42,893 nt of DNA from a virus (IMGVR_UViG_3300037424_002455:1-42893); one strand, 5' to 3'; counted from the stretch's first letter, positions 11,013 through 28,689 are shown. Numbers and translations: made by a program. The notes: generated from the sequence alone by a model not told the origin.

Positions 11013-11264
11013 TTATATACATGTCTCTTTATCAAGACCAATCGGACTATGCTCAAAGATAGTGCCAACCTTGACACTAAATTGTTTCTTGCAGGTTTTG
11101 CATTTCCACGTTTTGCGGGTGGTGAGATATGAGTGCTCAGTCCCCTTGCAGTTTGGGCATACAACACCATCAGACCAACGCATATCAACGAGGTATTGAT
11201 GAGCGATGTCTTTATCTGCAAAAAACACGATTGCTTGCTGGAGTGTCTGCGGTTTGGATGTCAT
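11013..11264 (-). pseudogene. Truncated IS1595-type transposase (N-terminal zinc-ribbon domain only)
   Basis: CPNCKGTEHSYLTTRKTWKCKTCKKQFSVKVGTIFEHSPIGLDK matches the ISXO2/IS1595 N-terminal Zn-ribbon pattern. The ORF runs straight into the left IR (..ETCI stop). No DDE domain. Confidence 0.7.
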
Positions 11265-11266
11265 AG

Positions 11267-11548
11267 TTAGGCTTTCTTTGTTTTGGGGCGTCCGCCAAGT
11301 TTGCCGTTGTTGGCAGACGATTGAGCTTTTCGAGTGGACTTGATCGAGCCGAGGGCAGCGCCTGCACGTCGTGCATCAAGCCATTTACCATCAAGGGCAT
11401 TTTGTACAGCCTCAATATCAGCAAGGATGCTGTGATTGTTTGTAACAAGTTCCGCTCTGCCATCGGTGGACATCCTGTTGAGCATTATGCGGGCGTCGGT
11501 CATGGCTTGGGTGGCTTTGAGCAACAGTTGAGTATCTTTTGTGTTCAT
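11267..11548 (-). CDS. Hypothetical passenger protein with a basic GGRPK C-terminal tail
   Basis: Start at MNTKDTQLL with a GGAG RBS. 93 aa, ending ...NNGKLGGRPKTKKA. Confidence 0.6.
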   Translation of the reverse strand: MNTKDTQLLLKATQAMTDARIMLNRMSTDGRAELVTNNHSILADIEAVQNALDGKWLDARRAGAALGSIKSTRKAQSSANNGKLGGRPKTKKA

Positions 11549-11599
11549 GATTTTCTCCAAGTAGAGAGGGGGGGCTTTCGCCCTCCCCAATCTAGTTGT

Positions 11600-11878
11600 T
11601 TATCCGTATCTATTCCTGAGCCAGTCCACATCAATATGATCGCCGTCGTTGTCGATAATCACGTGGCTAAACTCGCTCTCTCGGTCATGGATTTCCAAAG
11701 CCTCTTCGGGGGTCTCGCACGTGTAGTAGAGATTGTTACCGTAGTAGGCGGCGAGCACGATTGCGTATTTGTGCCCATCAGGAAAAATGATGTCCCGGTC
11801 AAAGTGCTCGCTTGCAGTATCGTGGATGGTTCCAGTGCCTGACATTTTTGCTTCGATTGTTACCGTTGTTTCGCTCAT
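11600..11878 (-). CDS. Hypothetical passenger protein
   Basis: Start at MSETTVTIE with an AAAGGAG RBS. 92 aa, acidic. Confidence 0.6.
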   Translation of the reverse strand: MSETTVTIEAKMSGTGTIHDTASEHFDRDIIFPDGHKYAIVLAAYYGNNLYYTCETPEEALEIHDRESEFSHVIIDNDGDHIDVDWLRNRYG

Positions 11879-11928
11879 TTCGATCTCCTTTTTGATTTTG
11901 TTGATACCTCGTACCAACTTATACCACT

Positions 11929-11958
11929 ATAATAACCTAACGTTAGGTTATTGTCAAG
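11929..11958 (-). promoter_or_regulatory. Near-consensus promoter with a 22-bp perfect palindromic operator inside the IS-like element
   Basis: On the minus strand: cccTTGACA, 18 nt, TATTAT. The spacer is the palindrome aataacctaacgttaggttatt (11931-11952). Confidence 0.6.
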
Positions 11959-12033
11959 GGTTGGAGAACACCAGTTTTTATGCCAATTTAGGAGGCTCAG
12001 GTGAGATATGTATATAAGTCCCAAAAGATAATA

Positions 12034-12054
12034 GCTAATCGCTAATAGCTAAAA
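12034..12054. repeat. Heptanucleotide array, right half
   Basis: gctaatc gctaata gctaaaa read directly. Confidence 0.8.
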
Positions 12055-12863
12055 GCCCTCACCACCACCGGCACCCACATCAACACCACAACCCCCAACA
12101 ACTCCAACGGACTATCCAACAAATACACCAACACCGCGCTCCACGTAAACTGCAACACATACGGAGCCAGCAACGGGCTCGAAGCCATCGCCAGCCGCGC
12201 ATTCCCCTTGCGGATCGCCCTCACCAAAACCACCCACCCCAACGCCATCCCATACCACCCCAGGCTCGTATTATCAACGCTCCACGCCAAAGTCTGCCCG
12301 AAGCGCAAAACCCAAACCCCATACACAACAAAAGAAACCAGCGTCAAAACCGTCACCGGCAAAAACGTCCTCACCATCGCCCAAAACCCCCGCTCGTTCC
12401 AGATACACACAAACCAGAAAACACCCAACCCAACCCCCACCTGAGGCTTCACCGCCAGCAAGACCAACCCCCACTGCGGCGGCAGCACCAACCCCAACAA
12501 CGGCATCCACTCGATATTCCCATTATTCAAACAACCTACCACAGCCGCCGAACACAAGAACAACACCAGCGTCCACCGCCTCGCCCCCAACTGAAAAGCC
12601 GTAAACGCAAACGCACACAACCCCACCACGAACATCCCAGCCCGCCCCACCTCCAACGGCAACAAAGCCAGCGGCACCAACGGCAACACCGCCCACGGAG
12701 CCGCATAATAGATCTCCACCGAAAACGGGCTCTCACCACTCCACACAGCCAGAGCCGCAGGTCGATACGTATTCTGCCAGTCCACCCCCACCGGCAAAAC
12801 GAACACCATCGCAACAAAAGCGATAATGAAAAGTACCACCAAAACGACCTGCTTCACGCCCAT
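12042..12863 (-). CDS. Polytopic membrane protein, DUF2029 / GT-C-like glycosyltransferase (putative)
   Basis: 273 aa with about 8 TM segments. The N-terminal pattern DWQNTYRPAALAVWSGESPF...YYAAPWAVLPLVPL and ...LLAVKPQVG resemble the GT87/DUF2029 family. Confidence 0.55.
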   Translation of the reverse strand: MGVKQVVLVVLFIIAFVAMVFVLPVGVDWQNTYRPAALAVWSGESPFSVEIYYAAPWAVLPLVPLALLPLEVGRAGMFVVGLCAFAFTAFQLGARRWTLVLFLCSAAVVGCLNNGNIEWMPLLGLVLPPQWGLVLLAVKPQVGVGLGVFWFVCIWNERGFWAMVRTFLPVTVLTLVSFVVYGVWVLRFGQTLAWSVDNTSLGWYGMALGWVVLVRAIRKGNARLAMASSPLLAPYVLQFTWSAVLVYLLDSPLELLGVVVLMWVPVVVRAFSY

Positions 12864-13204
12864 TAGATTCTCGCCCGGTTAGCCTTTCTCTGCACCTTCC
12901 GCACGCGACCCTTCGCCACCCGAGCCTGCAACTGCACCAACTGCTCCTGCCTCAGCCCCAATATCAACTCTGCCAACGCCTCAACGCTGATATCCCAGAA
13001 AGACACATGATCACAACTCTCACAACGGATCGACACCTGCCCGATCAGCGGACCGAACACCTCCACCTCCGCAGGCACATCATTGCTCATATCGATCGAA
13101 TGTCTCAACATCATCAACGTCGGGCTATCCTGCTGATTCCATCGGATCATCCCCAACACCGCACCACACCTCTTATTCTGACAACGCCATTGCTTCTCTC
13201 TCAT
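12863..13204 (-). CDS. Zinc-ribbon protein, hypothetical
   Basis: Start at MREKQWRCQNKRCG with ATGA overlap. Second Cys pair at CESCDH. Confidence 0.5.
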   Translation of the reverse strand: MREKQWRCQNKRCGAVLGMIRWNQQDSPTLMMLRHSIDMSNDVPAEVEVFGPLIGQVSIRCESCDHVSFWDISVEALAELILGLRQEQLVQLQARVAKGRVRKVQRKANRARI

Positions 13205-13686
13205 GATATGCCTCCAACCAAAACACACCGATCCAAAGCCCAATCCGCCTCCAACAACACCAACCCCTCTCCCCCCATCGCGCTAACAGCTAACTGCTGA
13301 CCGCTAATCGCTTCCCTCGGCAACCTCCTCATAAACACATACCCCGCCCTCCGATGCGTCTGCACAAAAAACCACTCAGCCAAAAACTCGATCACCTCAC
13401 TCACCCGAAACCCCTCCTCCGGCACCAACCGCCAAACCGCCAGCCTGCGAAACTTCCCCTCGCGACAAGCCGCAAACGGAAACTCCACCACCTCCCGCAC
13501 CGGATACACCACCTCCCCATAAAACAAACCCAGCGCGGACGTGGGATAACACCTCACAACCTCCAACCCACGCGCCGCCCCCGGCAAAAACCGCCGCATC
13601 CGCGCCACACTCACCGGAGCATCCGAAACCACCCTCACCTCCCGCATCCCATCCTCACTGATCGAATTACGAACTATCTCTTCCAT
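13201..13686 (-). CDS. Hypothetical protein
   Basis: 161 aa, ATG start, coupled to its neighbours. Contains an in-frame heptamer array (AISGQQLAVSA). Confidence 0.5.
   Translation of the reverse strand: MEEIVRNSISEDGMREVRVVSDAPVSVARMRRFLPGAARGLEVVRCYPTSALGLFYGEVVYPVREVVEFPFAACREGKFRRLAVWRLVPEEGFRVSEVIEFLAEWFFVQTHRRAGYVFMRRLPREAISGQQLAVSAMGGEGLVLLEADWALDRCVLVGGIS
13282..13316. repeat. Tandem heptanucleotide array (GCTNANN x5) inside a coding region
   Basis: gctaaca gctaact gctgacc gctaatc gcttccc read directly. Confidence 0.8.
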
Positions 13687-14303
13687 CGTGGCACCCTCTC
13701 CCTCGGCTCAAGCCACCCCAACCCAAGCAGGTTCAGAAAATCGATCTCCTCCGGCATCGGAAGATGGTTCACATCAGTCAACAGCTTCAACGCCTTTGCC
13801 TGGTCATCAGGGACTTCATTCTTCTTGATATCCATATCGACCCAAACCACCTGATGCTTCACAAAATAACCATCCGGCAATGCGCCGCCATACCTCCTCT
13901 GCGTGACACACCAGTGACCGAACTCCTTCGGACCCGTGCGGATCACCATCTGCACCCCCCAATGCGAAGGCGGGATGTTGATGAACAGATCCACCCAGAT
14001 CCCCGCATACTTCAAATACAACTTCTTGAAGCGGTCTCCATTCATCTTCACATCGATGTCCCCTGATACCTTCATATCCGAAACCATCTTATCCAGCAGA
14101 GTCTTATGGCTCTTCGGGATTGGCTTCCCAAACTCCAATCTTGGCGCAGGCATAGGCGAAAGGTCAGGCACACAAACGATCTCAATATCCTTCACCTCAG
14201 GCTTCGAGCGCCGCATCGAACCCGCGATCTCGATCCGCACGCACGCCGGTCGCAAATGCTCCACCAAAGCTTCAGTAGTCTTCAAAGCAACATCAAGTTT
14301 CAT
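13674..14303 (-). CDS. Minimal PolX-like (Pol beta superfamily) nucleotidyltransferase / DNA polymerase
   Basis: IAGSMRRSKPEVKDIEIVCV plus WVDLF plus TGPKEF...LGLGWLEPRER are collinear with ASFV Pol X / Pol beta palm-thumb motifs as I recall them. GGAGG RBS. Confidence 0.6.
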   Translation of the reverse strand: MKLDVALKTTEALVEHLRPACVRIEIAGSMRRSKPEVKDIEIVCVPDLSPMPAPRLEFGKPIPKSHKTLLDKMVSDMKVSGDIDVKMNGDRFKKLYLKYAGIWVDLFINIPPSHWGVQMVIRTGPKEFGHWCVTQRRYGGALPDGYFVKHQVVWVDMDIKKNEVPDDQAKALKLLTDVNHLPMPEEIDFLNLLGLGWLEPRERVPRWKR

Positions 14304-14724
14304 GATGTACCTCCACGTGTTCCCCTCTCCCATCGGGAGAGGGGTTAGGGGTAAGGGAAACATCCCTCCAATAAATCATCTCCAACTCAAACTCCAACAC
14401 CTCAGGCGGATACAGCTTGAAAAACTCGAAAAACTCCATGTGATTGGAAAACCCATCCCGCACCGCCAAACGCAAAGTCTCATCCAAAGACAACATCCTG
14501 CCATTCAAAACCACCCGCCCCAACTTCGGATAGATCTTCACCGGAACCACAGACGTACAAACCGCATCCATGATCAACCTGCACTTCTTCGTCCGCATTC
14601 CCGTATACAGCCAAAGCAATTGACCAGGCTTAGTCGGGTTCTTCCTCATCCTGCGGATCGTATGCACCTTCGCCCCCTCCTCGATCAACTTCACAAACTG
14701 CACCTTAAAACTATAAGCTGGCAT
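14293..14724 (-). CDS. ASCH-domain-like protein
   Basis: N-terminal FKVQFVKLIEEGAKVHTIRR fits the ASCH/PUA-like pattern. The C-terminus reads through GC hairpin element copy 2. Confidence 0.5.
   Translation of the reverse strand: MPAYSFKVQFVKLIEEGAKVHTIRRMRKNPTKPGQLLWLYTGMRTKKCRLIMDAVCTSVVPVKIYPKLGRVVLNGRMLSLDETLRLAVRDGFSNHMEFFEFFKLYPPEVLEFELEMIYWRDVSLTPNPSPDGRGEHVEVHHET
14322..14357. repeat. GC hairpin element copy 2
   Basis: cccctctccc atc gggagagggg ttaggggtaaggg read directly. Confidence 0.85.
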
Positions 14725-14733
14725 AATGAACCT

Positions 14734-15252
14734 CTACCCCTTCGCACTCTTCATGGCTTCATCATAGGCAACTCGCAGGCGTTTGAAATCTTCCTCGTCG
14801 CCGCCAGAATCAGGATGATGAACCTTCGATAAAGCCCGGAACGCATTGCGAATATCAGCCTTCTTCGCAGTGGGATGCACACCCATCACTTGCCACCACA
14901 GTTGTTTTCCACTACCCAATAACAAAGCTGTGTCATCAGGCGTAGCTAGAAACCCGCCGAAGATGGTGTTGAACTCCTGATCGAAATTCGTCTCACTCAT
15001 ATCAACCCCATAAAGTTCAAGCGCACGATAGAGATAATCAATCTGCAAACCGATTGCTCGCAAATTATCGATTGATTCATCCCATCGTTTACACTCTCGG
15101 ATATATCGCATCCCAGCCCGATCAAATATCACCTTCACACCTCCGCCCATTACATCCTGCTCAATGCGTAAAGACGTTGCGCCGATATTTGTCATCACTC
15201 GTTGCAAATCTTTCACCGTTGATTGTTGTGTTGCCGTAAATCTTCTAGCCAT
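14734..15252 (-). CDS. J-domain (DnaJ-like) protein
   Basis: C-terminal WWQVMGVHPTAKKADIRNAFRALSKVHHPDSGGDEEDFKRLRVAYDEA contains the HPD motif. GAAAGGAG RBS. Confidence 0.75.
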   Translation of the reverse strand: MARRFTATQQSTVKDLQRVMTNIGATSLRIEQDVMGGGVKVIFDRAGMRYIRECKRWDESIDNLRAIGLQIDYLYRALELYGVDMSETNFDQEFNTIFGGFLATPDDTALLLGSGKQLWWQVMGVHPTAKKADIRNAFRALSKVHHPDSGGDEEDFKRLRVAYDEAMKSAKG

Positions 15253-15265
15253 CTCAAACTCCTTT

Positions 15266-15328
15266 CACTGATAACTTCTAACTGATCACTGATCACTTTT
15301 CACTCATCATTCAACACTCATCACTTAC
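15266..15328. repeat. Tandem heptanucleotide array (CACTNAT-type x9), intergenic
   Basis: cactgat aacttct aactgat cactgat cactttt cactcat cattcaa cactcat cacttac read directly. Confidence 0.85.
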
Positions 15329-15447
15329 AACTACTCCCCTCCCCCACACGTGAGGGCTGCCCATCCAAACCACCTGTCCGAACGCACGCAAAATACTTGG
15401 CGGTTAAGAATAGGTTTTCATTCTTGACGGTTAAGAATTCAACCTGC

Positions 15448-15497
15448 TCCCCTCTCCCAGCGGGAGAGGCTGCCGAAGGCGTGGGGGTGAGGGAGAG
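15448..15497. repeat. GC hairpin element copy 3 (variant)
   Basis: tcccctctccc agc gggagagg ctgccgaaggcgtgggggtgagggagag. Intergenic. Confidence 0.8.
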
Positions 15498-15501
15498 AAC
15501 C

Positions 15502-15795
15502 CTACTCCACCACAAAGTTCGCCATGATATCCTTCGCCGCCTCCACCTGCTTCGCCAGCTCACTGTCATCCACACTCATCGCCTCGATCAACCCGCCCCC
15601 GATCAAGCGTGCGATCACAGAAGGGAACTTTTTCCGTGGTGGCAGTCCATTCAACCACGCCAGAACCTTATCCACCTCCGGGTCCACGCCTGGCTTCAAA
15701 TACCCATCCAACCGCACCCGCACCGACTGCACTGCATCCTTACGTCTCGCCATCACCAGCTCCAAATTCTGCACTCTGCATTTTGCATCCTGCAT
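15502..15795 (-). CDS. ParR-like adaptor (putative, by position downstream of parM)
   Basis: 97 aa. ATG follows the parM stop directly (TAAATG). The beta-helix-helix start (QSVRVRLDGY...) is compatible with a ribbon-helix-helix fold. Confidence 0.4.
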   Translation of the reverse strand: MQDAKCRVQNLELVMARRKDAVQSVRVRLDGYLKPGVDPEVDKVLAWLNGLPPRKKFPSVIARLIGGGLIEAMSVDDSELAKQVEAAKDIMANFVVE

Positions 15796-16773
15796 TTATT
15801 TCTTCATCACACTCAACTTCCACAACCCGCGGGCAATCGCCAGCACCGTGTCATCCGGCACCCACGCCTTATGCGCGAACTGCACAGTCAACGCATCCCG
15901 CAACAACAACGCCCCGCCGCCCACGATCAGCACCTTCGCAAAACGCCGGTGACTCATCCCCCACACCTTCTCGATCTCACCGTTCACCTCGCGGCTCCAC
16001 ACTGGCATGGCAGTCTTCAACTCAGCCTTCATCAAACCCGCACGGATCTTCGCATCCAACTCCCCCAGGCTGAACAAATTATCCCGGTTCATCAACTCCA
16101 ACAGACGGCGCACACCCAGCGTATTCCCGCGTGTGAAACGTTCCACTGCCCCGCGCTCCTTCACCACCAGCAACTCCACGGTGTTGAAACCCACGCTGAT
16201 CACACCCACCTCATCCAGCAAAGCCGAACCGCGCTCACCGATCATCTGCCCGCGGTGATCCAGCACATAATCGAACAACGCACCCACCGGTTGTGAAGTT
16301 TGTTTTACATCCTCCACCTCCACAGTGTGCGTCATCCCATCCACCTCGAACACATGCGATCCCTTCAACCAATTCTTCACACCCTTCTGATAATCCTTCG
16401 CCGAATCGCCAGTCATCATCTGCAATGGCAAACCCACCATCAGCGACAGCGGCTCATCGAACGGACCATGCTCAGCCTGGTACTGTGCCAAAGCCGCATA
16501 CAACAACACACGCATCTCCGGCGCACCTGTCAACCGGTCAAAATCCAAATTCTCAACCGGGCGCCCATGCTCATGCGCCCCATCCCCCACATAGAATGAA
16601 CCGAACTCCCCGCTCACCAACATCGGACGCCTGCGGTTCTTCAACCCCAGGATCCCATCCGAAAGATGACCATGACCGTTACTCGCCACCTGGCTCACCA
16701 ACTGCCACCCCCCCGGCGAACTCCATAACTTCAAAGCCCCCATCCCCATATCGAAACCAAAATTGATAGACAT
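15796..16773 (-). CDS. parM: Actin-like segregation ATPase, ParM/Alp family
   Basis: FGFDMGMGALKL (phosphate 1), MVGLP, VISVGFNTVELLVV (phosphate 2) and LIVGGGA (adenosine). Strong AAGGAG RBS. Confidence 0.75.
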   Translation of the reverse strand: MSINFGFDMGMGALKLWSSPGGWQLVSQVASNGHGHLSDGILGLKNRRRPMLVSGEFGSFYVGDGAHEHGRPVENLDFDRLTGAPEMRVLLYAALAQYQAEHGPFDEPLSLMVGLPLQMMTGDSAKDYQKGVKNWLKGSHVFEVDGMTHTVEVEDVKQTSQPVGALFDYVLDHRGQMIGERGSALLDEVGVISVGFNTVELLVVKERGAVERFTRGNTLGVRRLLELMNRDNLFSLGELDAKIRAGLMKAELKTAMPVWSREVNGEIEKVWGMSHRRFAKVLIVGGGALLLRDALTVQFAHKAWVPDDTVLAIARGLWKLSVMKK

Positions 16774-16846
16774 AATGTTCTCCTTTTTTTACATGTCGTT
16801 GCGAGCGGAGCGAAGCAATCTCATCGCACCACCCAAATAAAATGTT

Positions 16847-17659
16847 TTATGAACCGTGCATCCTTGCCTTCATCTCAGCCGTCTGCTCCAACCCCTCCAA
16901 CGCCTTCTCGATCACATTCGGAAGATGATAAGCATCGCCTCGTACCACGCCCGAACCTGCTTCTGCCTTCGACTGCGCCCTCACCACAGCCTTCATCGCC
17001 TCACTCATCGCCTCCTCCACCCCATACCCCCCCCCATCCAACCCAAACCGATGACGAAGCAGCTCCGCAGTCCACGGCGGCAACAACTGCGGAGCCTGAT
17101 TCCCGAATGCCTGCGTGATCATCAACTTGCTCTGCATCAAATGGATCAAGGCATCGTACTGCTCATAATCAGTCACCAGTCCATCCGGGTCGTACTGCCT
17201 GCTCCCATCACTCAAAAAACGCTTCGGCATGATCGACCCGTTCGAATGATCCAGCACGAAATCCACGAACCCCGCGTGGACGTTTGGAGCCTCATCCAGA
17301 ACCCAGTCCACAACATCCTTCAGCGGTATGTACTTCACGCGCCATATCGTTCTACGATGCACCAGCAAAGCCTTCACAGCCTCCGGGTGCATCCCCTTCG
17401 CCGCCTCGAACATCCGCACCTCAGGTGTCGAATTCCTAGCCGCCTGCACATTGGCAAAAATATCCGAATTATGGTCCTGCAAATACAGATACAGATTCAC
17501 ACACGCCGCCACAAACAGGATCACCAACAACACCGCAGGGATGATCGCCAGGTCAGCATACACTCCCCCACTCATAGACCAATCATTCCACCACACCAGG
17601 CACGGAGCGATCAACGCCGCAGGCACCATCCACTTCCAATTCCGAGGTCTATCGAACAT
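16847..17659 (-). CDS. Membrane protein (two N-terminal TM segments plus a soluble domain), hypothetical
   Basis: ATG at 17659 overlaps the upstream stop (TGATG). No recognised domain. Confidence 0.55.
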   Translation of the reverse strand: MFDRPRNWKWMVPAALIAPCLVWWNDWSMSGGVYADLAIIPAVLLVILFVAACVNLYLYLQDHNSDIFANVQAARNSTPEVRMFEAAKGMHPEAVKALLVHRRTIWRVKYIPLKDVVDWVLDEAPNVHAGFVDFVLDHSNGSIMPKRFLSDGSRQYDPDGLVTDYEQYDALIHLMQSKLMITQAFGNQAPQLLPPWTAELLRHRFGLDGGGYGVEEAMSEAMKAVVRAQSKAEAGSGVVRGDAYHLPNVIEKALEGLEQTAEMKARMHGS

Positions 17660-18180
17660 CACGCACCTCCTTTCAACTGACCCGTGTAGTATCGAAACGG
17701 ATGTTCTTCAACTGCCTCCCCTAAAATGATTTCAGGTTTTTCATCAACCGCAGGAATATCAAACATCGAGTATCCAGGGTTATAGACACCGCTTGCTGTT
17801 ACATGCGAATTACCATGCTGATCGGTCACAACATCCCGCCACACGATATGACCATTTGAGTCATAAGACTCTGTCCGTTGTGCAAACGCACGCATGTGCT
17901 CGACATAATTTGCATCCTCCTGCGCCTGAAGTTGCGAAAGTTCCTGCATGGTGTAGTCACCGGCAACGTCACGCCGGAAGGATTCCCGATCCGCTCGAGT
18001 GCCCAGCAATCCGTCACGGGTAGAAGATCCCGTCATCAGCGGAAACAGAAAGACCAGGACTGCCAGCGGAACCAACCCACACACACCCACAGCGTGCACA
18101 TAGAGAGGTAACGCCTCCCAGCCTGCCAGTCCCAACCCAAGCCCCGCAAGAACGATGGAAATCACAATAGATCTCATCAT
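17659..18180 (-). CDS. Membrane protein (two TM segments plus a soluble domain), hypothetical
   Basis: Start at MMRSIVISIV with ATGA overlap and GGGAGG upstream. Confidence 0.55.
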   Translation of the reverse strand: MMRSIVISIVLAGLGLGLAGWEALPLYVHAVGVCGLVPLAVLVFLFPLMTGSSTRDGLLGTRADRESFRRDVAGDYTMQELSQLQAQEDANYVEHMRAFAQRTESYDSNGHIVWRDVVTDQHGNSHVTASGVYNPGYSMFDIPAVDEKPEIILGEAVEEHPFRYYTGQLKGGA

Positions 18181-18371
18181 CCACCTCCCGACAGCCACGC
18201 TGTCAAAGCCTTTGCAACCAGAACGATCACAGTCACCAACCCGATTCCAGCAAACACATCACCCAACTGGCGGCGTAACTTCTTCACCCCAACTACAAAG
18301 TTATCCTGCAACCGATCCAACAGACCGCCTCCTGCCTTCCGCCTTCTGCTGACTGTCCGATTTTTCTTCAT
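18177..18371 (-). CDS. Small basic membrane protein
   Basis: MKKNRTVSRRRKAGGG...GIGLVTVIVLVAKAL. ATGA overlaps at both ends. Confidence 0.45.
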   Translation of the reverse strand: MKKNRTVSRRRKAGGGLLDRLQDNFVVGVKKLRRQLGDVFAGIGLVTVIVLVAKALTAWLSGGG

Positions 18372-18442
18372 ATCGCACGCACCGCAAGCAAAAACAGGAT
18401 CAACGTAAACGCACCCAATACAGCCCACAAAATCTCCATCAT
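18368..18442 (-). CDS. Candidate 24-aa hydrophobic micro-ORF (MMEILWAVLGAFTLILFLLAVRAI)
   Basis: AAGGAAGG RBS. Start overlaps the upstream stop and its stop overlaps the next ATG. Not in the supplied track (<60 aa). Confidence 0.3.
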   Translation of the reverse strand: MMEILWAVLGAFTLILFLLAVRAI

Positions 18443-18744
18443 TCACCTTCCTTTCCGCAAACACGGCACCTGGAAACTTGAAACTTGAAACCTGAAACTT
18501 CCGTACCCTTCAAGGGACGGACCCCACTCCAAACATCGTGACGACTCATCCCAAAACAACCCATGCAATACCTCTCCTCCATCTTCACAGAGACCGTCTG
18601 AAACCCGTTCCCTGGCTTATGCACCTGCCTCACCCCCCGCACCAGCTCAACAAACTGCAGGACAACCAAAGAAGTCTCATGAGAAGGAGAAGAAGACGCT
18701 TCCCCTCCCGAAAACTGGCTTCCACCGACAATATGGCTATGCAC
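18439..18744 (-). CDS. Hypothetical zinc-ribbon-like protein
   Basis: CMGC...CRVC pairs. GTG start. First ORF after the ori-like region. Confidence 0.4.
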   Translation of the reverse strand: MHSHIVGGSQFSGGEASSSPSHETSLVVLQFVELVRGVRQVHKPGNGFQTVSVKMEERYCMGCFGMSRHDVWSGVRPLKGTEVSGFKFQVSRCRVCGKEGE

Positions 18745-18779
18745 GAAATTTACTCCCTAGGCTGTGAAGCCTAAAACAT

Positions 18780-19110
18780 GGGGGTACCCCCCACAGGTGG
18801 ATAAAGTTGTCTGACAACAGTGAACGTTGATGTTCACTTAGTGAAGATCTCTGGCATGAGATCTTCACTATTGCCAGAACACTTATTCTAAAATTTTCTA
18901 TATATATATACTTACAAGATATAATGTTCACTTTGCTTCACTTTTCGATGCTTATCCGCAATTTTTGACCAAAAACGCCTCGCGCCGGGCTCATATGAGA
19001 CCCTAAAAAGCGCCGGTGAACGTCGGTGAACATCTTTTGGGGGTTTGAGACCCATAAAAAAAATTTTTTCACCAGTAGAAAGTGCCAAAAGATGTTCACC
19101 GTGCTTCACT
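18780..19110. other. Candidate origin of replication (iterons, inverted repeats, AT-rich tract)
   Basis: 11 copies of GTGAA/TTCAC cores, including the 19-bp unit atgttcacNNNgcttcac at 18924 and 19092 and inverted at 19015-19033. A 13-bp IR at 18839-18851/18858-18870. Tract tatatatata at 18901. Confidence 0.55.
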
Positions 19111-20938
19111 CCTTGTCCATAAACGTGGTTTTTTGCCACTTTTCACGCAATTCGGCATGACCTTCAGAGCCTTTCATCGGGTCTATAACCTGCGGGCGGG
19201 GGATACTTCCCCTCTCACGCCACTCTACAGCCCACCGTTCACACAGACCCTTTACCCGTTCCATTTCCAGTGTCATGTTCACGTAATTCGTCCCCTTATA
19301 TTGAGCGATACCGTCAGTCGAACGGATCGTCTTGAGATTCAGGTAGGTCTTCATCGTATGAGATAGCTTCCTGCTCTTTGCCTTGAACCGGTTCTTGTTT
19401 CCTTCCTTTTCATCATCTTCTTCATCCCCCTCACCCATTTGCTTGTTCTGATCGTCAACAACCTGGTTGGTTGCCGTAGAGATATCCTTCAAATAGATTC
19501 TGTTTTCATCTTCCATTCTGTCGCTCACCGGTCCCCACGCCCAAGCCAGCATGATTCCCTCCAGCACGCGTGCCGTGAAGGTCGCATACCGTTCACCCTT
19601 GCGTTCCTCGGTTACATTCTTCAGGTAATTGCGCACCAGGTCACGCCCCTTCTCACTCTTCATCACTGTCAAAAGGCTCACCGTCACCTGCGCAGTTCTT
19701 GAATCCATGGCTCTATCGATTGCACCAAGGTCAACCTGGCAATCCTTTTGGATGTTGTGCATCATGTAAGTGAAAAGCCCATTACGGATACCCAGGCATT
19801 CCCTTTCGTAGATCTCCACAGGCGGCAGGTCCAGTGGGATGCGTGGATGCGGCATGATCGGAAGCATCTCCTTTGTCAAACATCGGCTCGAAGTTGCCGG
19901 GTCTTGGAAATCCTTACGCATCCCAATCACCTTGGGACCGAACACATCGAATGCCGCCGCATCGAAGTTCCCCATCGCGTTCTTTTCGGACCTGAGGATG
20001 GGTTGCCCCTTCTCGTTCCCACCATTCAGGATCTTCGCGATCATCGAAGCCTCATCCGAATTGGAGAAATCAGCTTCATCCAGGACCAGTGTGCTGTTGG
20101 TAAATAGGTCAAGGATTCGGAACAACGAAGAAGATGATGAACCCGCATTCGTCATGATCGGTTGGAAACAAATGGGACCGATCGTCTTCAACAAACGGCT
20201 CTTACCCGTCCCATAATCGCCCAATGCCCGCAGGTATGGCACTGTCCTGAACTGTTTTGCAAGATACGTGAAGAACGGATAGATCATGCACAACTGTTCG
20301 AAAGTTTCATCCGCGCCGAAGTCGAAATACCTTGCATTGTGCGATTTGATCGCAAATAACAGGTCGCTTTCCTCCGCCAATTCGATCATTTGCGAAGGTA
20401 GCAATATCACTCTCTTGCGGATGATATTATTCGCTGGCATCGGCAGGTACTTTTGTTTGCCGATCATCAAACGTTCCAGCCGGTCTTCCACACTTCCGTC
20501 GGGGAAGCGCACTGCAAAATAAGTTTTGTCTTGCTCGGCGTCATATTCCAAACCGATGAAATGCTCAAACAACCATCCACCTGTGATGAACATCGGTTCC
20601 TGGTCGTCGTCATCCTGCCCCTTTTTCTTATGACCGTTCAAATTCTTTAGGCGCTCTGTCCATTGTGTGCTTTTGATCTCAGCCGCCATGCATAATGCAT
20701 CCTTGAAACCGGCTCGATCATCAGGACTCAACAACGCCACACCGTTCTTGAAGAAATCGTTCAACGCATCGGTCTTATCGGTCATGTTATGGATCTCCCC
20801 GATCTCCTCAGCCCAATGTACGATGAAAGGCTTGGCGCCAACCATCCATGCTTCTACCTGGCGCGCCTGTTCGTCGGGTTGAACATCTTTCTTCACCCAC
20901 TCCTGCAATTGCGCATTCGCATCCTTGATCTTAGGCAT
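19106..20938 (-). CDS. P-loop NTPase, putative replicative helicase-type ATPase
   Basis: GDYGTGKS (Walker A) and LVLDEADF (Walker B). Start at MPKIKD with a GAGGAG RBS, overlapping the primase stop. Confidence 0.65.
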   Translation of the reverse strand: MPKIKDANAQLQEWVKKDVQPDEQARQVEAWMVGAKPFIVHWAEEIGEIHNMTDKTDALNDFFKNGVALLSPDDRAGFKDALCMAAEIKSTQWTERLKNLNGHKKKGQDDDDQEPMFITGGWLFEHFIGLEYDAEQDKTYFAVRFPDGSVEDRLERLMIGKQKYLPMPANNIIRKRVILLPSQMIELAEESDLLFAIKSHNARYFDFGADETFEQLCMIYPFFTYLAKQFRTVPYLRALGDYGTGKSRLLKTIGPICFQPIMTNAGSSSSSLFRILDLFTNSTLVLDEADFSNSDEASMIAKILNGGNEKGQPILRSEKNAMGNFDAAAFDVFGPKVIGMRKDFQDPATSSRCLTKEMLPIMPHPRIPLDLPPVEIYERECLGIRNGLFTYMMHNIQKDCQVDLGAIDRAMDSRTAQVTVSLLTVMKSEKGRDLVRNYLKNVTEERKGERYATFTARVLEGIMLAWAWGPVSDRMEDENRIYLKDISTATNQVVDDQNKQMGEGDEEDDEKEGNKNRFKAKSRKLSHTMKTYLNLKTIRSTDGIAQYKGTNYVNMTLEMERVKGLCERWAVEWRERGSIPRPQVIDPMKGSEGHAELREKWQKTTFMDKE

Positions 20939-22109
20939 CTTGCGACTCCTCGCCCTGGTTTCTCGCATCTTCCCTCGTCCATTGCCTGCTCATCCTAAGG
21001 ATCTGTATCTTGGGTCCCAGCAGTTTTGCCGCCACATGCAAAGCCTTTTGCCCTGCCTCATCGTCATCCAGCGATAGAAACACAGCCGGATGCTTCTTGA
21101 TGAAGCCTGCCAGCTTGCGCATTCTCTCCCCATCCTCAGGGCTCATCTGTGTAGGGTCTCCCAACAGCCCACAGAACGCCATGCTTCCCTGTCCCCATTG
21201 TCCGAATGTGATCGCATCCCCCTGCCCCTCCACACATACCAACGCCCTGTCTGTCCGATGTGCATGGTTGAAATAAGGCTGTTTGGGTCCAGCCAGTAGC
21301 TTGTACGGGTTGAAAGATTTCCATTCCCGTTGCTTTCCATTGTCTTTGATTTTGTCGAAGCCAGGCAATTGCCTTCGGCTCAAATAATTCACGCCTCCAC
21401 GATGCTGGTGTGAATAGATCAATCCCGGCTTATCCATCAACCCGTGGATGCGACCCTTATTCGTCCATTCCATATCGAAGTCTTCATGATCAAGAAGATT
21501 ATGTTTTATTCCCCATGTGCCCACGTCCCCATCGAAGCCAAATATAGCCACGCCTGCAGGAGATAACGGGTCTATCCCATAGAGCGAAAATTCGCCCTTC
21601 ATGTCGTTGATTTGTTTCTCAGTCTTCCGCCCCGAGAACCCCAACACAGCCGCATTGATCGTCACATCATACCAGCCGCGCCCGTGTGCATAAGCCAAAG
21701 CCTCATCATCTGGCTTGATGCCTTTTTCTTCATCCCCCATCAACCATCGGTGAAAAACGCTCGCCGCCACCGAAAATACATCAGCAGTAGCACGTTGTCG
21801 TTTTACTTCACTCTCGTTCACCGCCTGGAAGCGTGGCATCTCTATATTGGCACGCCGCGCCAGGATGTTCACTGCATCCATAAACTCGATGCCCTTCTCA
21901 TGCATCACCCACCCGAACACATCCCCGTTCCAGTTCTGTGAATACCAGAACACGCGTTGCATGTCTGTGCGAACCTTCATCGAATCGTGCTTTGTTGCCG
22001 TTCTCAGCCTGCCATGCCCGCGCAGGTGAATACCGCTTTCAGCGAGCACATCCTCGATCGGGTTTGCGTCTCGAACCTTCTCAATGAAATCATCAAAGTT
22101 GTCTGCCAT
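20931..22109 (-). CDS. DnaG-like DNA primase (Toprim)
   Basis: LVCVEGQGDAITF (Toprim EGxxD) and FLSLDDDEAGQKA (DxD). The N-terminal region is primase-like. Confidence 0.7.
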   Translation of the reverse strand: MADNFDDFIEKVRDANPIEDVLAESGIHLRGHGRLRTATKHDSMKVRTDMQRVFWYSQNWNGDVFGWVMHEKGIEFMDAVNILARRANIEMPRFQAVNESEVKRQRATADVFSVAASVFHRWLMGDEEKGIKPDDEALAYAHGRGWYDVTINAAVLGFSGRKTEKQINDMKGEFSLYGIDPLSPAGVAIFGFDGDVGTWGIKHNLLDHEDFDMEWTNKGRIHGLMDKPGLIYSHQHRGGVNYLSRRQLPGFDKIKDNGKQREWKSFNPYKLLAGPKQPYFNHAHRTDRALVCVEGQGDAITFGQWGQGSMAFCGLLGDPTQMSPEDGERMRKLAGFIKKHPAVFLSLDDDEAGQKALHVAAKLLGPKIQILRMSRQWTREDARNQGEESQDA

Positions 22110-22223
22110 TAGCCTTTACCCGTTTTTCCAGAAATTTATTACCTATATGAGCCTGCCCGCCGCGCGGACCTGCCCAAAACCAAGAGATCTTCGCCGCCTA
22201 CCCCCACCCCCCTCCCCCCATGC

Positions 22224-22305
22224 CTTATGCGACAAATAATCAATGCCCTATGACCCAATCTGGCGGTCAATAATGGGGTGTAGGGGTGGGTATTTGTCGC
22301 ATAAG
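22224..22305. repeat. 15-bp perfect inverted repeat pair in a 358-bp non-coding spacer
   Basis: cttatgcgacaaata (22224-22238) and tatttgtcgcataag (22291-22305). Interleaved with complementary C-rich (22203-22210) and G-rich (22283-22290) runs. Confidence 0.8.
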
Positions 22306-22467
22306 AACTGTTTTGCGACAGCCACACCCGTTTTGCACAGCACACCCCCCCAGGGCACATAACGCAGATGAATAAGGTGAAGAATGCGAATCTTTCTTCT
22401 ACTGATAAACAAGTGTGTGCGCCACCTTGCTGGTGGCAGGCTGGTGACCTGGGATGAGTTGACATTC

Positions 22468-24087
22468 TCAGTTACCATTTCTAAACGTATCCATACAACG
22501 CTTGATAATCATTTCCATAACAGGTGGTGTGACAGCATTCCCGTATTGCTTCACCATCTCCCTCTTGGTTCCAAGAACAACATATGACTTGGGGAATGCC
22601 ATCGCCTTGCCTATCTCGTGTGGATGCAACATACGGAAGTAAAGGTCTTCAACGGTGAGACTATCTAGGGAATGGATCAGCGCAGCTCTATCAAGCCCTG
22701 TCACTGTATGGATTGGATCTCCCATGCCACTGGCTTGTGTTGTGCCGTAATAATAGGAAAGGAAAGAGCCTGCTGATAACACTGCATGATGGCTCCCAGT
22801 CGATGTGACAAACATCAGGGGTTCATCAATCCCACGAGAGTGTGAGGTACCACGCATCTCAACGATAAAGGATGGATTGATCAAGCCAAATGATTTCTGA
22901 ATTTCAGGGGGGACGGTGAGAATCGATTGATTCCCACTGGTTGTCATTGTGCCGGTTGCTTCATCCAAACCACTGGGCATGAATTCAGGTTTGGCAGCTC
23001 CACCATTGTTTCTAGTTAGGAAACCAGCAACAATACCCAGTGTTTGAGCAGTTGTCTGCGTGGGGGTGGAATCTGCACTACTGGTGACATACTTTCCGTT
23101 GCCCTGGCTGTGTGCAGTCTCTACCATCCAAGGCAACACAACTGCATGACTTGCATCACCTGGTTGAGTTGGAAGTGGTTCACGATATGCGTCCTTGACA
23201 CGGCATTCTAGTCCGCTTGTGTAGCGACCGGTGACTATCATGACCTGCCTGCCGTATTGCTCAAGCCCATATTCAATCCGGGCAAGGGTTTTTGGTTTTA
23301 GTGGAGTTTTGCGATCTCCAATCCGTTTTGCTTCGATGGTCCAATCAATAGCGTTGAATGCGGCAAAGTGGTATGGAGTTACTTGATCATGACACGTTGG
23401 GCATCGATAATAATATTGAGATTTATATCTTCCCCACTTTGTTCTGCGCTTCCACGTCTGGATCGTCTCGACATCACCACCGCATTTCATACAGTGAGCG
23501 ACAGGGCGAAAATCGAGATCTGGCTTGCGATTCCCTCTCTTCCAGAAGACAACATAAATTCGGTCACGGCTCTGTGGAGTTGGGAATGCAAACATGGAAT
23601 TGAAGTAAACAACTTCATGTTCATAACCCAGTGCGTGCATTGCACTCAGCCAGGCATCCCACATACGCCACTTGACAGCATCTACAACGTTCTCGGTGAT
23701 GATGATGTTGTAATCATGGTATTCTGCAAAGCGTGGAACATCCCACATGGTGGCACGGCTGCGCTCTTCGGATGGATCTATCAACACATCACCGAATAGG
23801 TTTTTCTCATAGTACCGGCGCGGCTTGCCTTTTGCCAACGAATGGTTTGTGCATTCGGGACTGGTGAGAAGAATATCCGTGGACGGATACTTGCGTGGGT
23901 TCACAGCAGAGATATCCGCGCAGTCATGATCAACTTTGGGGAAGTTGGTGTTGTGTGTCTCAATTGCCAGCTTCCAATGGTTCATCGCCAGGCGCACTTC
24001 TGCACCCGCCATTGTTGCACCAATTGAAGAGCCACCAGCCCCACAGAATTGATCTGTGAGCGTAATGAACGATCTCTTTCGTGCCAT
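22468..24087 (-). CDS. DNA (cytosine-5) methyltransferase with an internal Zn-ribbon insertion
   Basis: FCGAGGSS (motif I), SPECTNHS (motif IV PC), ITENV (motif VI) and QYGNAVTPPV (motif X). Insert carries CMKCGG...CPTCH. Confidence 0.85.
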   Translation of the reverse strand: MARKRSFITLTDQFCGAGGSSIGATMAGAEVRLAMNHWKLAIETHNTNFPKVDHDCADISAVNPRKYPSTDILLTSPECTNHSLAKGKPRRYYEKNLFGDVLIDPSEERSRATMWDVPRFAEYHDYNIIITENVVDAVKWRMWDAWLSAMHALGYEHEVVYFNSMFAFPTPQSRDRIYVVFWKRGNRKPDLDFRPVAHCMKCGGDVETIQTWKRRTKWGRYKSQYYYRCPTCHDQVTPYHFAAFNAIDWTIEAKRIGDRKTPLKPKTLARIEYGLEQYGRQVMIVTGRYTSGLECRVKDAYREPLPTQPGDASHAVVLPWMVETAHSQGNGKYVTSSADSTPTQTTAQTLGIVAGFLTRNNGGAAKPEFMPSGLDEATGTMTTSGNQSILTVPPEIQKSFGLINPSFIVEMRGTSHSRGIDEPLMFVTSTGSHHAVLSAGSFLSYYYGTTQASGMGDPIHTVTGLDRAALIHSLDSLTVEDLYFRMLHPHEIGKAMAFPKSYVVLGTKREMVKQYGNAVTPPVMEMIIKRCMDTFRNGN

Positions 24088-25019
24088 TACATTACTCCTT
24101 CAACAGCGGATTGGAGTTCTTGAATTGACGATCGCAGGTAGCGGCGGGTGGTTTCGATGGATTCGTGTCCGAGCAGGTCGCGGATGGTTTCGATGGGGGT
24201 TCCGTTGGCTTCGAGCCGTTTGGCGAAGGTGTAGCGGAGCCAGTGGCATGTAAGGTCAGGGACGCCGATCTGTGCGCCCAGGGATGAGATCTCTCGTTGG
24301 AGGGTGCGGACACAGATTTGGAAAAGGACGGTTGTTGTGGATGCAGGTCGAAGGTGGAGATGGGAGGCGAGGGCTTTGCGTCCGATCAGGTTGATGGGGA
24401 CTGTGCGTTCTTTATGTCCTTTTCCGTCGCGGACTATGACATATCCAGAGCGTTCGTTGATGGTGATATCTTCGGTGCATAGACTTGCGGCTTCGTCGAC
24501 GCGCAGTCCGTGGAGCATGATGAGGGTGGATGCCCAGGCTCGGACGGCGTTGTTGTATTCGAACAGGGTGACGGCTCGTTTGGTGTTTTGTTCGATGGCG
24601 TGGATGAGGCGGTGGTATTCGTCGTTTGTGAGGGCGCGGTGTTTGGTGGAGCCGCGTGAGCCGGTTTTGCCTTCGATATCGGTTATGAGTCCTGGATCGC
24701 CGATGTAGCTGGTGAGGTGTGTGAGCGCCCAGAGTCGGGAGTTCCATGTTGCGGCTTTGACCTTTTCCTGTTCGAGCGAATGTGCGCGGTAGAGGTGGAG
24801 GTCGTAGTTGGTGAGCAGGGATGGGATGAATGCCTGGTTGAATTTGTTTGTGTACCAGCCTGCAAAGACGCGGATGTGTTGCATGGCAAGTTTGATGCTG
24901 GCGGGGTCGAGCCGTGGTTTGCGGTTGAAGAGGTGGGTTTGGAGTTCCACGTGCCAGGTCACGTGTTGCAGGTCGGTTGCAGGGACGGTAAGAGGATGTT
25001 GAGTTGTATTGGTATTCAT
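24087..25019 (-). CDS. Tyrosine recombinase, XerC/D-like
   Basis: GLRVDE (Arg), GKGHKER (Lys), HWLRYTF (HxxR) and LLGHESIETTRRY (His, Tyr). Its stop shares a base with the methyltransferase ATG (TAATG). Confidence 0.85.
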   Translation of the reverse strand: MNTNTTQHPLTVPATDLQHVTWHVELQTHLFNRKPRLDPASIKLAMQHIRVFAGWYTNKFNQAFIPSLLTNYDLHLYRAHSLEQEKVKAATWNSRLWALTHLTSYIGDPGLITDIEGKTGSRGSTKHRALTNDEYHRLIHAIEQNTKRAVTLFEYNNAVRAWASTLIMLHGLRVDEAASLCTEDITINERSGYVIVRDGKGHKERTVPINLIGRKALASHLHLRPASTTTVLFQICVRTLQREISSLGAQIGVPDLTCHWLRYTFAKRLEANGTPIETIRDLLGHESIETTRRYLRSSIQELQSAVEGVM

Positions 25020-25047: not shown

Positions 25048-25099
25048 AGCGGCGGGCGATGGGGCGGGTGCTTGCGTCACTCATCTCGTGCTCCACTAA

Positions 25100-28688: not shown

Positions 28689-28689
28689 A

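What the first reader, a model, noticed from the sequence alone, without database searches (positions are those of the whole stretch)
12042..18744. Blocks of extreme keto/amino strand asymmetry with opposite sign in genes on the same strand
From about 12042 to 18744 the plus strand is almost only A and C. For example, 12061-12120 contains 4 G and 4 T in 60 nt. The minus-strand genes here therefore use almost exclusively G/T-ending codons (gtg agg gtg gtt tcg gat gct ccg gtg ...). The J-domain gene (14734-15252) and part of 17700-18000 are balanced islands.

Other genes show the opposite bias, with A/C-rich coding strands and C/A-ending codons (acc aat aca act caa cat cct ctt acc gtc ...). These are the XerC/D-like gene (24087-25019), the GGDEF-like gene (26819-27355), ORF 27712-28047 (all also on the minus strand) and the plus-strand serine integrase (29875-31485). 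Structural genes, the methyltransferase and intI are roughly balanced.

Gene direction therefore does not explain the pattern. It suggests a mosaic of segments with different mutational histories. Possibilities include strand-specific deamination during single-stranded phases, segment inversion relative to replication from the ori-like site at ~18.9 kb, or acquisition from different donors. A side effect is very long spurious antisense ORFs in the skewed block.
Basis: seen in the sequence. Interest (0 to 1): 0.6.

Follow-up and report, generated by a model that had tools for sequence, protein, structure and literature searches.

The report
Extreme G+T/A+C strand-skew blocks in phage
In this temperate phage of Anaerolineae bacteria, several gene blocks have one DNA strand almost stripped of A and C at freely changeable sites; the pattern is real, was built inside the phage lineage and resembles mitochondrial strand bias or the 'GRINS' elements, but its cause is not settled.

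Summary
Over 12020-13658 the minus strand has a keto skew of +0.45, and 95-97% of four-fold sites are G or T. Over 13659-18795 the skew is +0.23. The XerC-like gene, the GGDEF-like gene and ORF 27712-28314 show the mirror image. Holding the proteins fixed and drawing codons from whole-phage usage gives z = +10.7 to -13.6.

One correction: on the DNA strand, the serine-integrase block has the same sign as the 12-18.7 kb block. Only about 24-28.7 kb is truly reversed.

Host codon usage does not explain it. Sampled Anaerolineales host genes have a third-position skew of 0.01 +/- 0.11. Orthologues in related phages share the early-block skew, and first and second codon positions and amino acids shift with it.

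My best reading (about 0.4) is a strand-asymmetric substitution pressure acting in place. Its signs fit forks diverging near the primase gene and meeting at the lysis-lysogeny switch. Recently imported genes form the balanced islands.

The closest described phenomenon is GRINS, whose mechanism is unknown; its repeat criterion is not met here. The scan has noted similar patches in other phages and archaea.

The parts
12020..13658 (-). Block K1, the most extreme keto block. It holds three genes: a GT87-like membrane protein (12042-12863), ORF 12863-13243 and ORF 13201-13686.
   Evidence: Minus-strand keto skew is +0.45. k3 is +0.61 to +0.80. Four-fold sites are 95-97% G/T over 12045-12762. z = +10.7, +5.8 and +8.5. 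The Atlas lead for 12042 is a Chloroflexota membrane protein family, with GT87 in a related cluster.
13659..18795 (-). Block K2, the distal early operon. It includes ORF 13674-14363, ORF 14293-14724, ORF 15502-15795 (called ParR-like by an earlier scan note; no family match here), the actin-like ParM/ALP gene (15796-16773) and ORFs up to 18744.
   Evidence: Minus-strand keto skew is +0.23. k3 is +0.32 to +0.64. ALP_N and MreB-like_C Pfam hits. Orthologues in 14 viral contigs also have positive k3.
14734..15252 (-). Balanced island: the J-domain gene, probably a recent recombinational import.
   Evidence: k3 is +0.27. DnaJ Pfam hit. It is 82% identical in DNA and 87% in protein to L007, whose copy has k3 0.16, against 70-77% DNA identity for the flanks.
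17790..18030 (-). Balanced island inside gene 17659-18198.
   Evidence: k3 is +0.25 against +0.4 to +0.7 beside it.
11082..12019 (-). IS1595-like insertion that abuts block K1. It has the opposite, mild skew.
Evidence: Minus-strand keto skew is -0.15, with a break at 12020 (likelihood-ratio statistic 149).
18796..23798 (-). Nearly balanced stretch: iteron-rich ori candidate, 620-aa replication protein, DnaG-type primase, a small ORF and a C5 DNA methyltransferase. The cumulative keto-skew minimum lies at 22412.
   Evidence: Keto skew is +0.02. k3 is +0.17, +0.18, -0.05 and +0.03. Pfam hits. Cumulative minimum.
24087..25019 (-). XerC/D-like tyrosine recombinase with an A+C-rich coding strand. 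This is the strongest reversed block.
   Evidence: k3 is -0.63 (C3 56%, A3 26%), z = -13.6. The steps at both gene ends are sharp. Orthologue k3: G005/L004 0.03, G006/L005 -0.45, G007 -0.26, L040 -0.35.
25078..26744 (-). Balanced integron part: two cassettes and intI.
   Evidence: Keto skew is +0.01. intI k3 is +0.10. The integron reading comes from earlier notes e1-3297805 and e1-3297804.
26745..28684 (-). Reversed block of immediate-early genes: the GGDEF-like gene 26819-27445 and ORF 27712-28314.
   Evidence: Minus-strand keto skew is -0.17. k3 is -0.48 and -0.26; z = -8.8 and -5.1.
28650..28677 (-). Perfect sigma-70 consensus promoter of the leftward early operon. It lies in the divergent switch region where the strand skew changes sign (28685).
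   Evidence: TTGACA-16-TATAAT, 12 of 12 matches. Break at 28685. Local cumulative maximum.
28685..31605 (+). Lysogeny module on the plus strand, including the large serine integrase 29875-31485. The coding strand is A+C-rich, so the minus strand is G+T-rich, as in K1 and K2.
   Evidence: Minus-strand keto skew is +0.16. Integrase k3 is -0.37, z = -10.2. Integrase k3 is negative in all 5 genomes that have it, where it lies opposite to the lytic genes.

Best explanation
The blocks record a strand-asymmetric substitution pressure that acts inside this phage lineage. One DNA strand is driven towards G and T, so that G >> A and T > C, and its complement towards C and A.

The pressure is tied to the DNA strand and to fixed places on the phage map, not to the reading direction of genes. 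The strand that carries the lytic genes is G+T-rich from the replication module leftwards, most strongly in the distal early operon (18.8 to 12.0 kb). It stays G+T-rich under the oppositely oriented integrase. The polarity is reversed only between the primase gene (about 22.4 kb) and the lysis-lysogeny switch (28.69 kb).

These are the signs expected if the G+T-rich strand is the one most often single-stranded or copied discontinuously. On that view, forks diverge from the replication module and meet at the switch, where the rightward fork runs head-on into the strongest early promoter.

Genes brought in recently by recombination are still balanced. These include the J-domain gene, the methyltransferase, intI with its cassettes, and the IS element. 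They give the mosaic look.

Shown: the pressure exists, arose in place, reaches amino acids, and does not come from the host. Inferred: replication or single-strand exposure is its physical cause.
For: 1. Size and discreteness.
2. Not host-derived. 356 ORFs sampled from a 1.75-Mb contig of an Anaerolineales genome that carries a related prophage have k3 0.01 +/- 0.11 (range -0.38 to 0.37) and GC skew under 0.1. Ribosomal-protein operons of two such genomes have k3 about 0 to +0.2.
3. Arose in place.
   - Early-block orthologues in the related viral contigs have k3 +0.13 to +0.61, apart from the reversed L012.
   - The ALP tree puts all skewed copies in one phage clade, rising to the window.
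   - The window and G005 are colinear at 73% DNA identity through methylase and XerC. Yet XerC k3 is -0.63 against 0.03, with synonymous differences T>C 37:2 and G>A 20:3.
4. It behaves like a mutation pressure.
   - First and second codon positions follow k3 across 40 ALP orthologues (r = 0.81 and 0.77).
   - Gly+Val+Cys+Trp against Pro+Thr+His+Gln content shifts as expected.
   - Gene 12042 against its L015 homologue shows A>G plus C>T 46:7 at first positions.
   - Four non-coding gaps between skewed genes in three genomes are all skewed the same way (mean +0.13 over 886 nt).
5. Linked to the DNA strand. The serine integrase, opposite to the lytic genes, has negative k3 in 5 of 5 genomes.
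6. The reversed block is a mirror image. XerC has C 0.56, A 0.26, T 0.09, G 0.10. K1 has G 0.66, T 0.24, A 0.01, C 0.09.
7. Anchors. The cumulative plus-strand keto skew has its minimum at 22412, beside the primase gene, and a local maximum at the switch. Both anchors recur in G005, G006 and G007 although the genes between them differ.
8. No sequence-context preference and no enriched k-mer, so a site-specific enzyme or a motif is unlikely.
Against: - Genes that the same fork would copy differ widely: tail genes have k3 about 0, K1 has +0.8.
- The steps are sharp at gene borders.
- The skew is highest farthest from the replication module, which simple single-strand-time models do not predict.
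- The iteron-rich ori candidate (18.8-19.1 kb) is not at the cumulative minimum.
- The reversal is absent from the more distant relatives G009-G011. The four genomes that share it are close kin, so they are not independent.
- The XerC-like gene alone is reversed in distant L040, between positively skewed neighbours. That looks gene-specific.
- Many differences are of the C>G type (55:1), which deamination cannot make in one step.
- The two short non-coding pieces inside the window's own block are barely skewed.
- No replication data exist for this phage.
Confidence: 0.4

Rival explanations
1. GRINS-type process. [quoted passage not shown] Recombination or gene conversion between related phages drives recoding towards a strand of G+T, for example because a G/T-rich invading strand forms only G-T wobble mismatches with diverged partners. 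Block borders are then conversion-tract ends.
For: - Every compositional hallmark in PMC8256042 is present: correlated GC and TA skews above 0.15, strongest at third positions, the Gly/Val/Cys/Trp against Pro/Thr/His/Gln shift, and abrupt sign flips on one strand.
- That paper reports GRINS overlapping transposases, integrases and phage genes, and also single-copy skewed regions.
- The most reversed genes here are two recombinases.
- Borders are sharp and coincide with genes, which are the usual phage recombination modules.
Against: - The defining repeat is missing. The only internal duplicate is the 127-bp assembly overlap.
- Identity to relatives is not raised in the skewed genes.
- No recombination-hotspot-like k-mer is enriched.
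- The mechanism of GRINS is itself unknown, so this names the phenomenon more than it explains it.
Confidence: 0.2
2. Each block acquired its skew elsewhere, in another phage, orientation or host, and was brought in by horizontal exchange. No process acts in this genome.
For: - Balanced islands match segments that are unusually similar to other relatives.
- Steps coincide with gene borders.
- XerC-like alleles with A+C-rich coding strands occur in distant relatives (L040, L005) between differently skewed neighbours.
- One relative, G004/L012, is reversed throughout.
Against: - The early-block skew is shared by a whole clade at the same map position.
- Syntenic, colinear orthologues differ in skew.
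- The host shows no such skew.
- A source for the skew is still needed, so this only moves the question.
Confidence: 0.2
3. Selection on transcripts. G/U-rich, C-poor mRNAs of the long distal early operon escape Rho-dependent termination. C/A-rich, unstructured mRNAs of the immediate-early and recombinase genes are strong Rho substrates and are kept silent unless antiterminated. Alternatively, codon choice tunes translation.
For: - A coding-strand rule covers both the XerC-like gene (minus strand) and the serine integrase (plus strand), and both operons that diverge from 28685.
- The XerC-like gene is reversed gene-specifically in L040.
- Rho is present in three Anaerolineales genomes.
Against: - The TA skew is as strong as the GC skew, which Rho avoidance does not require.
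- Amino acids shift with the skew.
- Host ribosomal genes show no such codon preference.
- The structural genes are the least skewed, although late structural genes are usually the most highly expressed (my assumption).
- Opposite-strand genes in skewed genomes are always negative, as a DNA-strand effect predicts.
Confidence: 0.1
4. Transcription-associated or R-loop-associated damage to the non-template strand of heavily transcribed operons.
For: - The keto-rich strand of 12-18.8 kb is the non-template strand.
- G-rich non-template DNA favours R-loops, which could make the effect self-reinforcing (my inference from general knowledge of R-loops; that GC skew predisposes DNA to R-loop formation is stated in the abstract of PMC3787257).
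Against: - The genes directly behind the strongest promoter have the opposite sign.
- The integrase sign would need antisense read-through.
- Few G-quadruplex motifs are present.
Confidence: 0.07

Closest known systems
[quoted passage not shown] 2021, PMC8256042)
   Same: - Stretches of hundreds of bases to kilobases are written mostly in G+T or in C+A.
- GC and TA skews go together and are strongest at third codon positions.
- The encoded proteins are functional but shifted in amino-acid content.
- The sign flips abruptly on one strand.
- They have been reported in integrases, transposases and phage genes.
- The mechanism is unknown.
   Different: - GRINS are defined as duplicated regions (over 500 bp, over 80% identity) that undergo gene conversion. 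No duplicate exists in this genome.
- Here the blocks are up to 6.7 kb long, span many unrelated genes, and keep a fixed place on the phage map across relatives.
Heavy/light strand asymmetry of vertebrate mitochondrial DNA
   Same: - One strand is G+T-rich and the other A+C-rich.
- The rarest base at silent sites falls to a few percent.
- Proteins shift with it (abstract of PMC2779903, seen).
- It is ascribed to deamination of A and C on the strand that stays single-stranded during replication (my knowledge).
   Different: - Here the asymmetry is patchy within one genome, changes sign three times, is stronger at four-fold sites (95-97% G/T) and favours G far above T.
- The gradient does not follow a simple single-strand-time model.
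Replication-associated GC/AT skew of bacterial chromosomes and plasmids
   Same: - The G+T-rich strand behaves like a leading strand.
- The cumulative skew has one minimum beside the replication genes and one maximum.
   Different: - The amplitude is many times larger. Host GC skew is under 0.1, against 0.47 here.
- The two arms are 6 kb and 36 kb.
- Most of the long arm is nearly unskewed.

Membership tests
GRINS (Nivina et al. 2021) | Region longer than 500 bp with mean absolute GC skew and TA skew above 0.15 (150-nt windows, 30-nt step) | tested here: met
   Mean absolute GC/TA skew: K1 0.49/0.39; XerC-like 0.35/0.27; GGDEF block 0.19/0.27; serine integrase 0.21/0.25. K2 is 0.34/0.14, just under the line for TA.
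GRINS (Nivina et al. 2021) | Duplicated: over 80% DNA identity to another region of the same cluster or genome | tested here: not met
   Self-BLAST of the window finds only the 127-bp terminal overlap.
GRINS (Nivina et al. 2021) | GC and TA skews correlated, strongest at third codon positions, with a Gly/Val/Cys/Trp against Pro/Thr/His/Gln shift | tested here: met
   Genome-wide r(GC, TA) = 0.44, p = 3e-67. k3 far exceeds k1 and k2. GVCW is 0.24-0.33 in the K1 and ALP proteins; PTHQ is 0.19-0.23 in the reversed genes.
Replication-associated strand asymmetry | Sign of the skew follows the DNA strand, not gene orientation | tested here: inconclusive
   The opposite-strand serine integrase is negative in 5 of 5 genomes. 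However, three same-strand genes in the window are also negative.
Replication-associated strand asymmetry | Sign change located at the replication origin and terminus | not testable with these tools
   The cumulative minimum is at 22412 beside the primase gene and the maximum at the 28.69 kb switch. The origin and fork directions of this phage are unknown. The iteron candidate at 18.8-19.1 kb lies 3.4 kb away from the minimum.
Host-adapted codon usage / translational selection | Codon choice of the blocks matches host genes, above all highly expressed ones | tested here: not met
   Host ORFs have k3 0.01 +/- 0.11. Ribosomal-protein operons have k3 about 0 to +0.2.

The most novel reading that the evidence does not exclude
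Phages of Chloroflexota, and the other phages and archaea in which this scan saw the same patches, are subject to an undescribed site-anchored process that recodes kilobases of working genes into a near two-letter alphabet on one strand. Candidates are a biased-conversion drive favouring G/T-rich invading strands, or long-lived single-stranded intermediates at fixed points of the phage cycle. Such a process would both mark and promote modular recombination. If so, GRINS and these phage blocks are one phenomenon with one mechanism.
Probability: 0.2. Interest if true: 0.85.

Novelty: new variant of a known kind. Interest (0 to 1): 0.6.

Why it matters
- Strand skews of this size, with 95-97% G/T at four-fold sites, exceed those of animal mitochondria, the textbook extreme. 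They change protein composition in working genes.
- In phages such blocks distort codon-usage-based host prediction, gene calling (long false antisense ORFs), phylogeny (convergent composition raises apparent similarity, as seen for XerC between the window and L005) and tests of selection.
- If the anchors mark fork directions or single-stranded intermediates, the skew gives a sequence-only read-out of how an uncultured phage replicates.
- If it is the GRINS process, phages offer a much simpler system than polyketide synthase clusters in which to find its mechanism.

Tried and rejected
- Host replication skew or host codon usage: rejected.
- A repeated motif or Chi-like site as the cause: no k-mer exceeds a synonymous-shuffle null (maximum z about 3), and E. 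coli Chi occurs once in the block.
- Context-specific deaminase signature: none. G/(G+A) is 0.85-0.96 in every neighbour context.
- G-quadruplex clustering: only three strict motifs on the minus strand of the whole genome. Relaxed two-tetrad motifs merely follow G content.
- Phage-encoded deaminase or mutator: none among the Pfam and PHROG hits of the 29 window proteins searched.
These genomes may be incomplete.
- Physical genome ends: only Logan contigs were available (X1 is probably the source sample; X2 holds a small share). No molecule ends were reported, and no RNA holder was listed.
- Literature: no paper was found that describes such blocks in phages ('keto skew' + phage, and strand asymmetry + phage). 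The five papers that mention 'intense nucleotide skews' all concern assembly-line synthases: four PKS, one NRPS.
- A viral-contig scan with the XerC-like protein found nothing. The scan with gene 12042 found one relative.
- Simple strand-displacement and end-resection timing models were worked through by hand. Neither reproduces both the sign and the position of the maximum.


Full report
WHAT THE WINDOW IS

The window is a whole virus record of 42,893 bases. Its first and last 127 bases are identical, so it is a circular assembly. It is a temperate tailed phage. Nearly all genes lie on the minus strand.

Reading the minus strand from the divergent switch at about 28.69 kb, the order is:
- immediate-early genes;
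- an integron integrase with two cassettes (earlier notes);
- a XerC/D-like recombinase;
- a C5 methyltransferase;
- a DnaG-type primase and a 620-aa replication protein;
- an early block with an actin-like ParM/ALP gene and a J-domain gene;
- the late operon, which runs through coordinate 1 into the tail genes.

A lysogeny module with a large serine integrase lies on the plus strand at 28.69-31.9 kb.

Relatives of the ALP gene are found almost only in Anaerolineae (Chloroflexota) assemblies. This names the host group.

CHECK OF THE OBSERVATION

The skew is real and large.
- The plus-strand keto skew (G+T-A-C)/N is -0.30 to -0.56 over 12.0-13.8 kb. It stays at -0.12 to -0.38 on to 18.9 kb, apart from one near-balanced window.
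- On the coding strand, the third-position keto skew (k3) is +0.80 for 12042-12863, where A3 is 1% and C3 9%.
- k3 is +0.78 for 13201-13686 and +0.32 to +0.64 for the rest of the block.
- k3 is +0.27 for the J-domain gene and mostly 0 to +0.24 for structural genes.
- k3 is -0.63 for the XerC-like gene, -0.48 for the GGDEF-like gene, -0.26 for 27712-28314 and -0.37 for the serine integrase.
- In 12045-12762, 95-97% of four-fold degenerate sites are G or T.

A likelihood segmentation gives ten discrete segments. In minus-strand keto skew they are:
- 1-11081: +0.04
- 11082-12019: -0.15
- 12020-13658: +0.45
- 13659-18795: +0.23
- 18796-23798: +0.02
- 23799-25077: -0.27
- 25078-26744: +0.01
- 26745-28684: -0.17
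- 28685-31605: +0.16
- 31606-42893: +0.01

I also kept each protein fixed and drew its codons from whole-phage usage. The observed k3 then lies at z = +10.7, +8.5, +8.5 and +8.1 for block genes. It lies at -13.6, -10.2 and -8.8 for the XerC-like, integrase and GGDEF-like genes. Amino-acid composition therefore does not explain the blocks.

The long plus-strand ORFs inside the block have no family match. They are what a T-poor strand produces.

A CORRECTION

On its coding strand that is true. On the DNA strand it is not: under the integrase the minus strand is G+T-rich, as in the 12-18.8 kb block. Only the stretch from about 24 kb to 28.7 kb is truly reversed.

The reversed genes are a close mirror of the main block. 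XerC has C 0.56, A 0.26, T 0.09, G 0.10. K1 has G 0.66, T 0.24, A 0.01, C 0.09. This points to one process acting on either strand.

NOT THE HOST, NOT TRANSLATION

One Anaerolineales genome carries a decayed relative of this phage on a 1.75-Mb contig. I sampled 356 ORFs along that contig. Their k3 is 0.01 +/- 0.11, never beyond +/-0.38, and the regional GC skew is under 0.1. The ribosomal-protein operons of two such genomes have k3 of about 0 to +0.2. Neither block type copies host usage.

THE SKEW WAS BUILT IN THE PHAGE LINEAGE

Fourteen related viral contigs were found. Seven were fetched whole or as far as their records go.
- In most relatives, orthologues of the early-block genes have k3 of +0.2 to +0.6. 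Their structural genes have 0 to +0.4.
- One relative, G004/L012, is reversed throughout.
- On a protein tree of 36 ALP genes, all skewed copies fall in one clade of phage contigs. k3 rises towards the window. A second clade of copies in Anaerolineae assemblies is unskewed.
- The window and G005 are colinear at 73% DNA identity from the ori region through most of the XerC-like gene. In G005 that gene has k3 0.03; in the window, -0.63. The synonymous differences are T>C 37:2, G>A 20:3 and G>C 18:1.
- Gene 12042 (k3 +0.80) has a single homologue, in L015, with k3 -0.12 at 58-59% protein identity.

IT BEHAVES AS A PRESSURE ON DNA, NOT ONLY ON CODON CHOICE

- Across 40 ALP orthologues, first and second codon positions follow the third (r = 0.81 and 0.77). 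Relatedness inflates these values.
- The content of Gly+Val+Cys+Trp against Pro+Thr+His+Gln follows k3 (Spearman 0.71).
- Between gene 12042 and its homologue, first positions differ by A>G or C>T 46 times against 7 the other way.
- Non-coding gaps between skewed genes are few. All four found, in three genomes, lean the same way (mean +0.13 over 886 nt).
- The window's own short gaps, which hold hairpin repeats, are nearly flat.
- There is no neighbour-base preference and no enriched k-mer.
- Not all differences are transitions. C>G type differences are the most frequent class at third positions (55:1). The end state is G >> T > C > A, which simple deamination does not fully explain.

WHERE THE SIGN CHANGES

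The cumulative plus-strand keto skew falls to a minimum at 22412, just upstream of the primase gene. It rises to a local maximum at the switch, then falls again through the integrase module. A perfect TTGACA-16-TATAAT promoter for the leftward early operon sits at 28677-28650.

The same two anchors are seen in G005, G006 and G007, although the genes between them differ. These four genomes are close kin. The more distant G009-G011 show only a weaker positive skew before the primase gene, not a reversal.

The serine integrase, opposite to the lytic genes, has negative k3 in all five genomes that have it. This favours a DNA-strand effect.

Against a purely positional effect, the XerC-like gene alone is reversed in the distant relative L040, between positively skewed neighbours.

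READING

The best-supported account is a strand-asymmetric substitution pressure acting in place.
- The strand that carries the lytic genes is driven to G+T from the replication module leftwards and around to the integrase.
- The other strand is driven to G+T between the primase gene and the switch.
- These are the signs expected for forks that leave the replication module in both directions and meet at the switch. On this view the rightward fork is slowed by head-on early transcription.
- Recently imported genes are still balanced. The J-domain gene is 82% identical in DNA to L007, against 70-77% for its flanks. The methyltransferase is 84% identical in protein to G005.

I give this about 0.4. 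It does not explain why the amplitude differs so much among genes copied by the same fork. It does not explain why the maximum lies at the far end of the early operon, nor why the steps are so sharp at gene borders.

The closest described phenomenon is GRINS (PMC8256042). It shares every compositional hallmark, and its authors saw it in integrases and phage genes. Its defining repeat is absent here, and its mechanism is unknown.

The other rivals are:
- a mosaic of imported pre-skewed segments;
- selection on transcript composition, for example Rho avoidance; Rho is present in the hosts;
- transcription-linked damage.
Each is scored in its own section.

EARLIER NOTES OF THIS SCAN

Earlier notes report comparable kilobase patches in other phages and archaea, including a Chloroflexota prophage remnant. 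I took from them the pointer to GRINS and the NucS idea. NucS does not apply here: the hosts have MutS and no NucS match.

Noticed in passing
window 1-127 and 42767-42893: The two ends of the record are identical over 127 bases. The record is therefore a circular assembly with about 42,766 unique bases, and a gene runs across the junction.
   Followed up: yes
window 14312-14344 and 15439-15469: There are two copies of a short hairpin element (CCCCTCTCCCAnCGGGAGAGG) at gene ends. Many metagenome contigs break or diverge exactly there (loose ends at 14320-14357). It therefore looks like a dispersed REP-like repeat of the Chloroflexota host that the phage has picked up.
   Followed up: partly
window 15393-15438: Two 19-nt direct repeats (ATACTTGGCGGTTAAGAAT and ATTCTTGACGGTTAAGAAT) lie 27 nt apart, start to start. 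They sit in the non-coding gap just beyond the 3' end of ORF 15502-15795, which follows the ALP gene. They are a candidate centromere-like site of the partition cassette.
   Followed up: no
L012 / G004 (IMGVR_UViG_3300043399_000686), whole 36.6 kb: This relative has A+C-rich coding strands in both of its convergent gene sets (ALP k3 -0.34, C3 52%). This is the reverse of the rest of the clade. It would be a natural test case for what sets the sign.
   Followed up: partly
G002 (Anaerolineales UBA5195), contigs C7, C9, C56, C80: One assembly holds five copies of the actin-like ALP gene (49-59% identical to the phage's), two of them on one 129-kb contig. This points to several related elements in one host.
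   Followed up: no
window 12042-12863: The most skewed gene encodes a multi-pass membrane protein. Its Atlas look-alikes are Chloroflexota proteins, and one related cluster carries the GT87 glycosyltransferase family in about half of its members. It may be a surface-modifying moron at the end of the early operon.
   Followed up: partly
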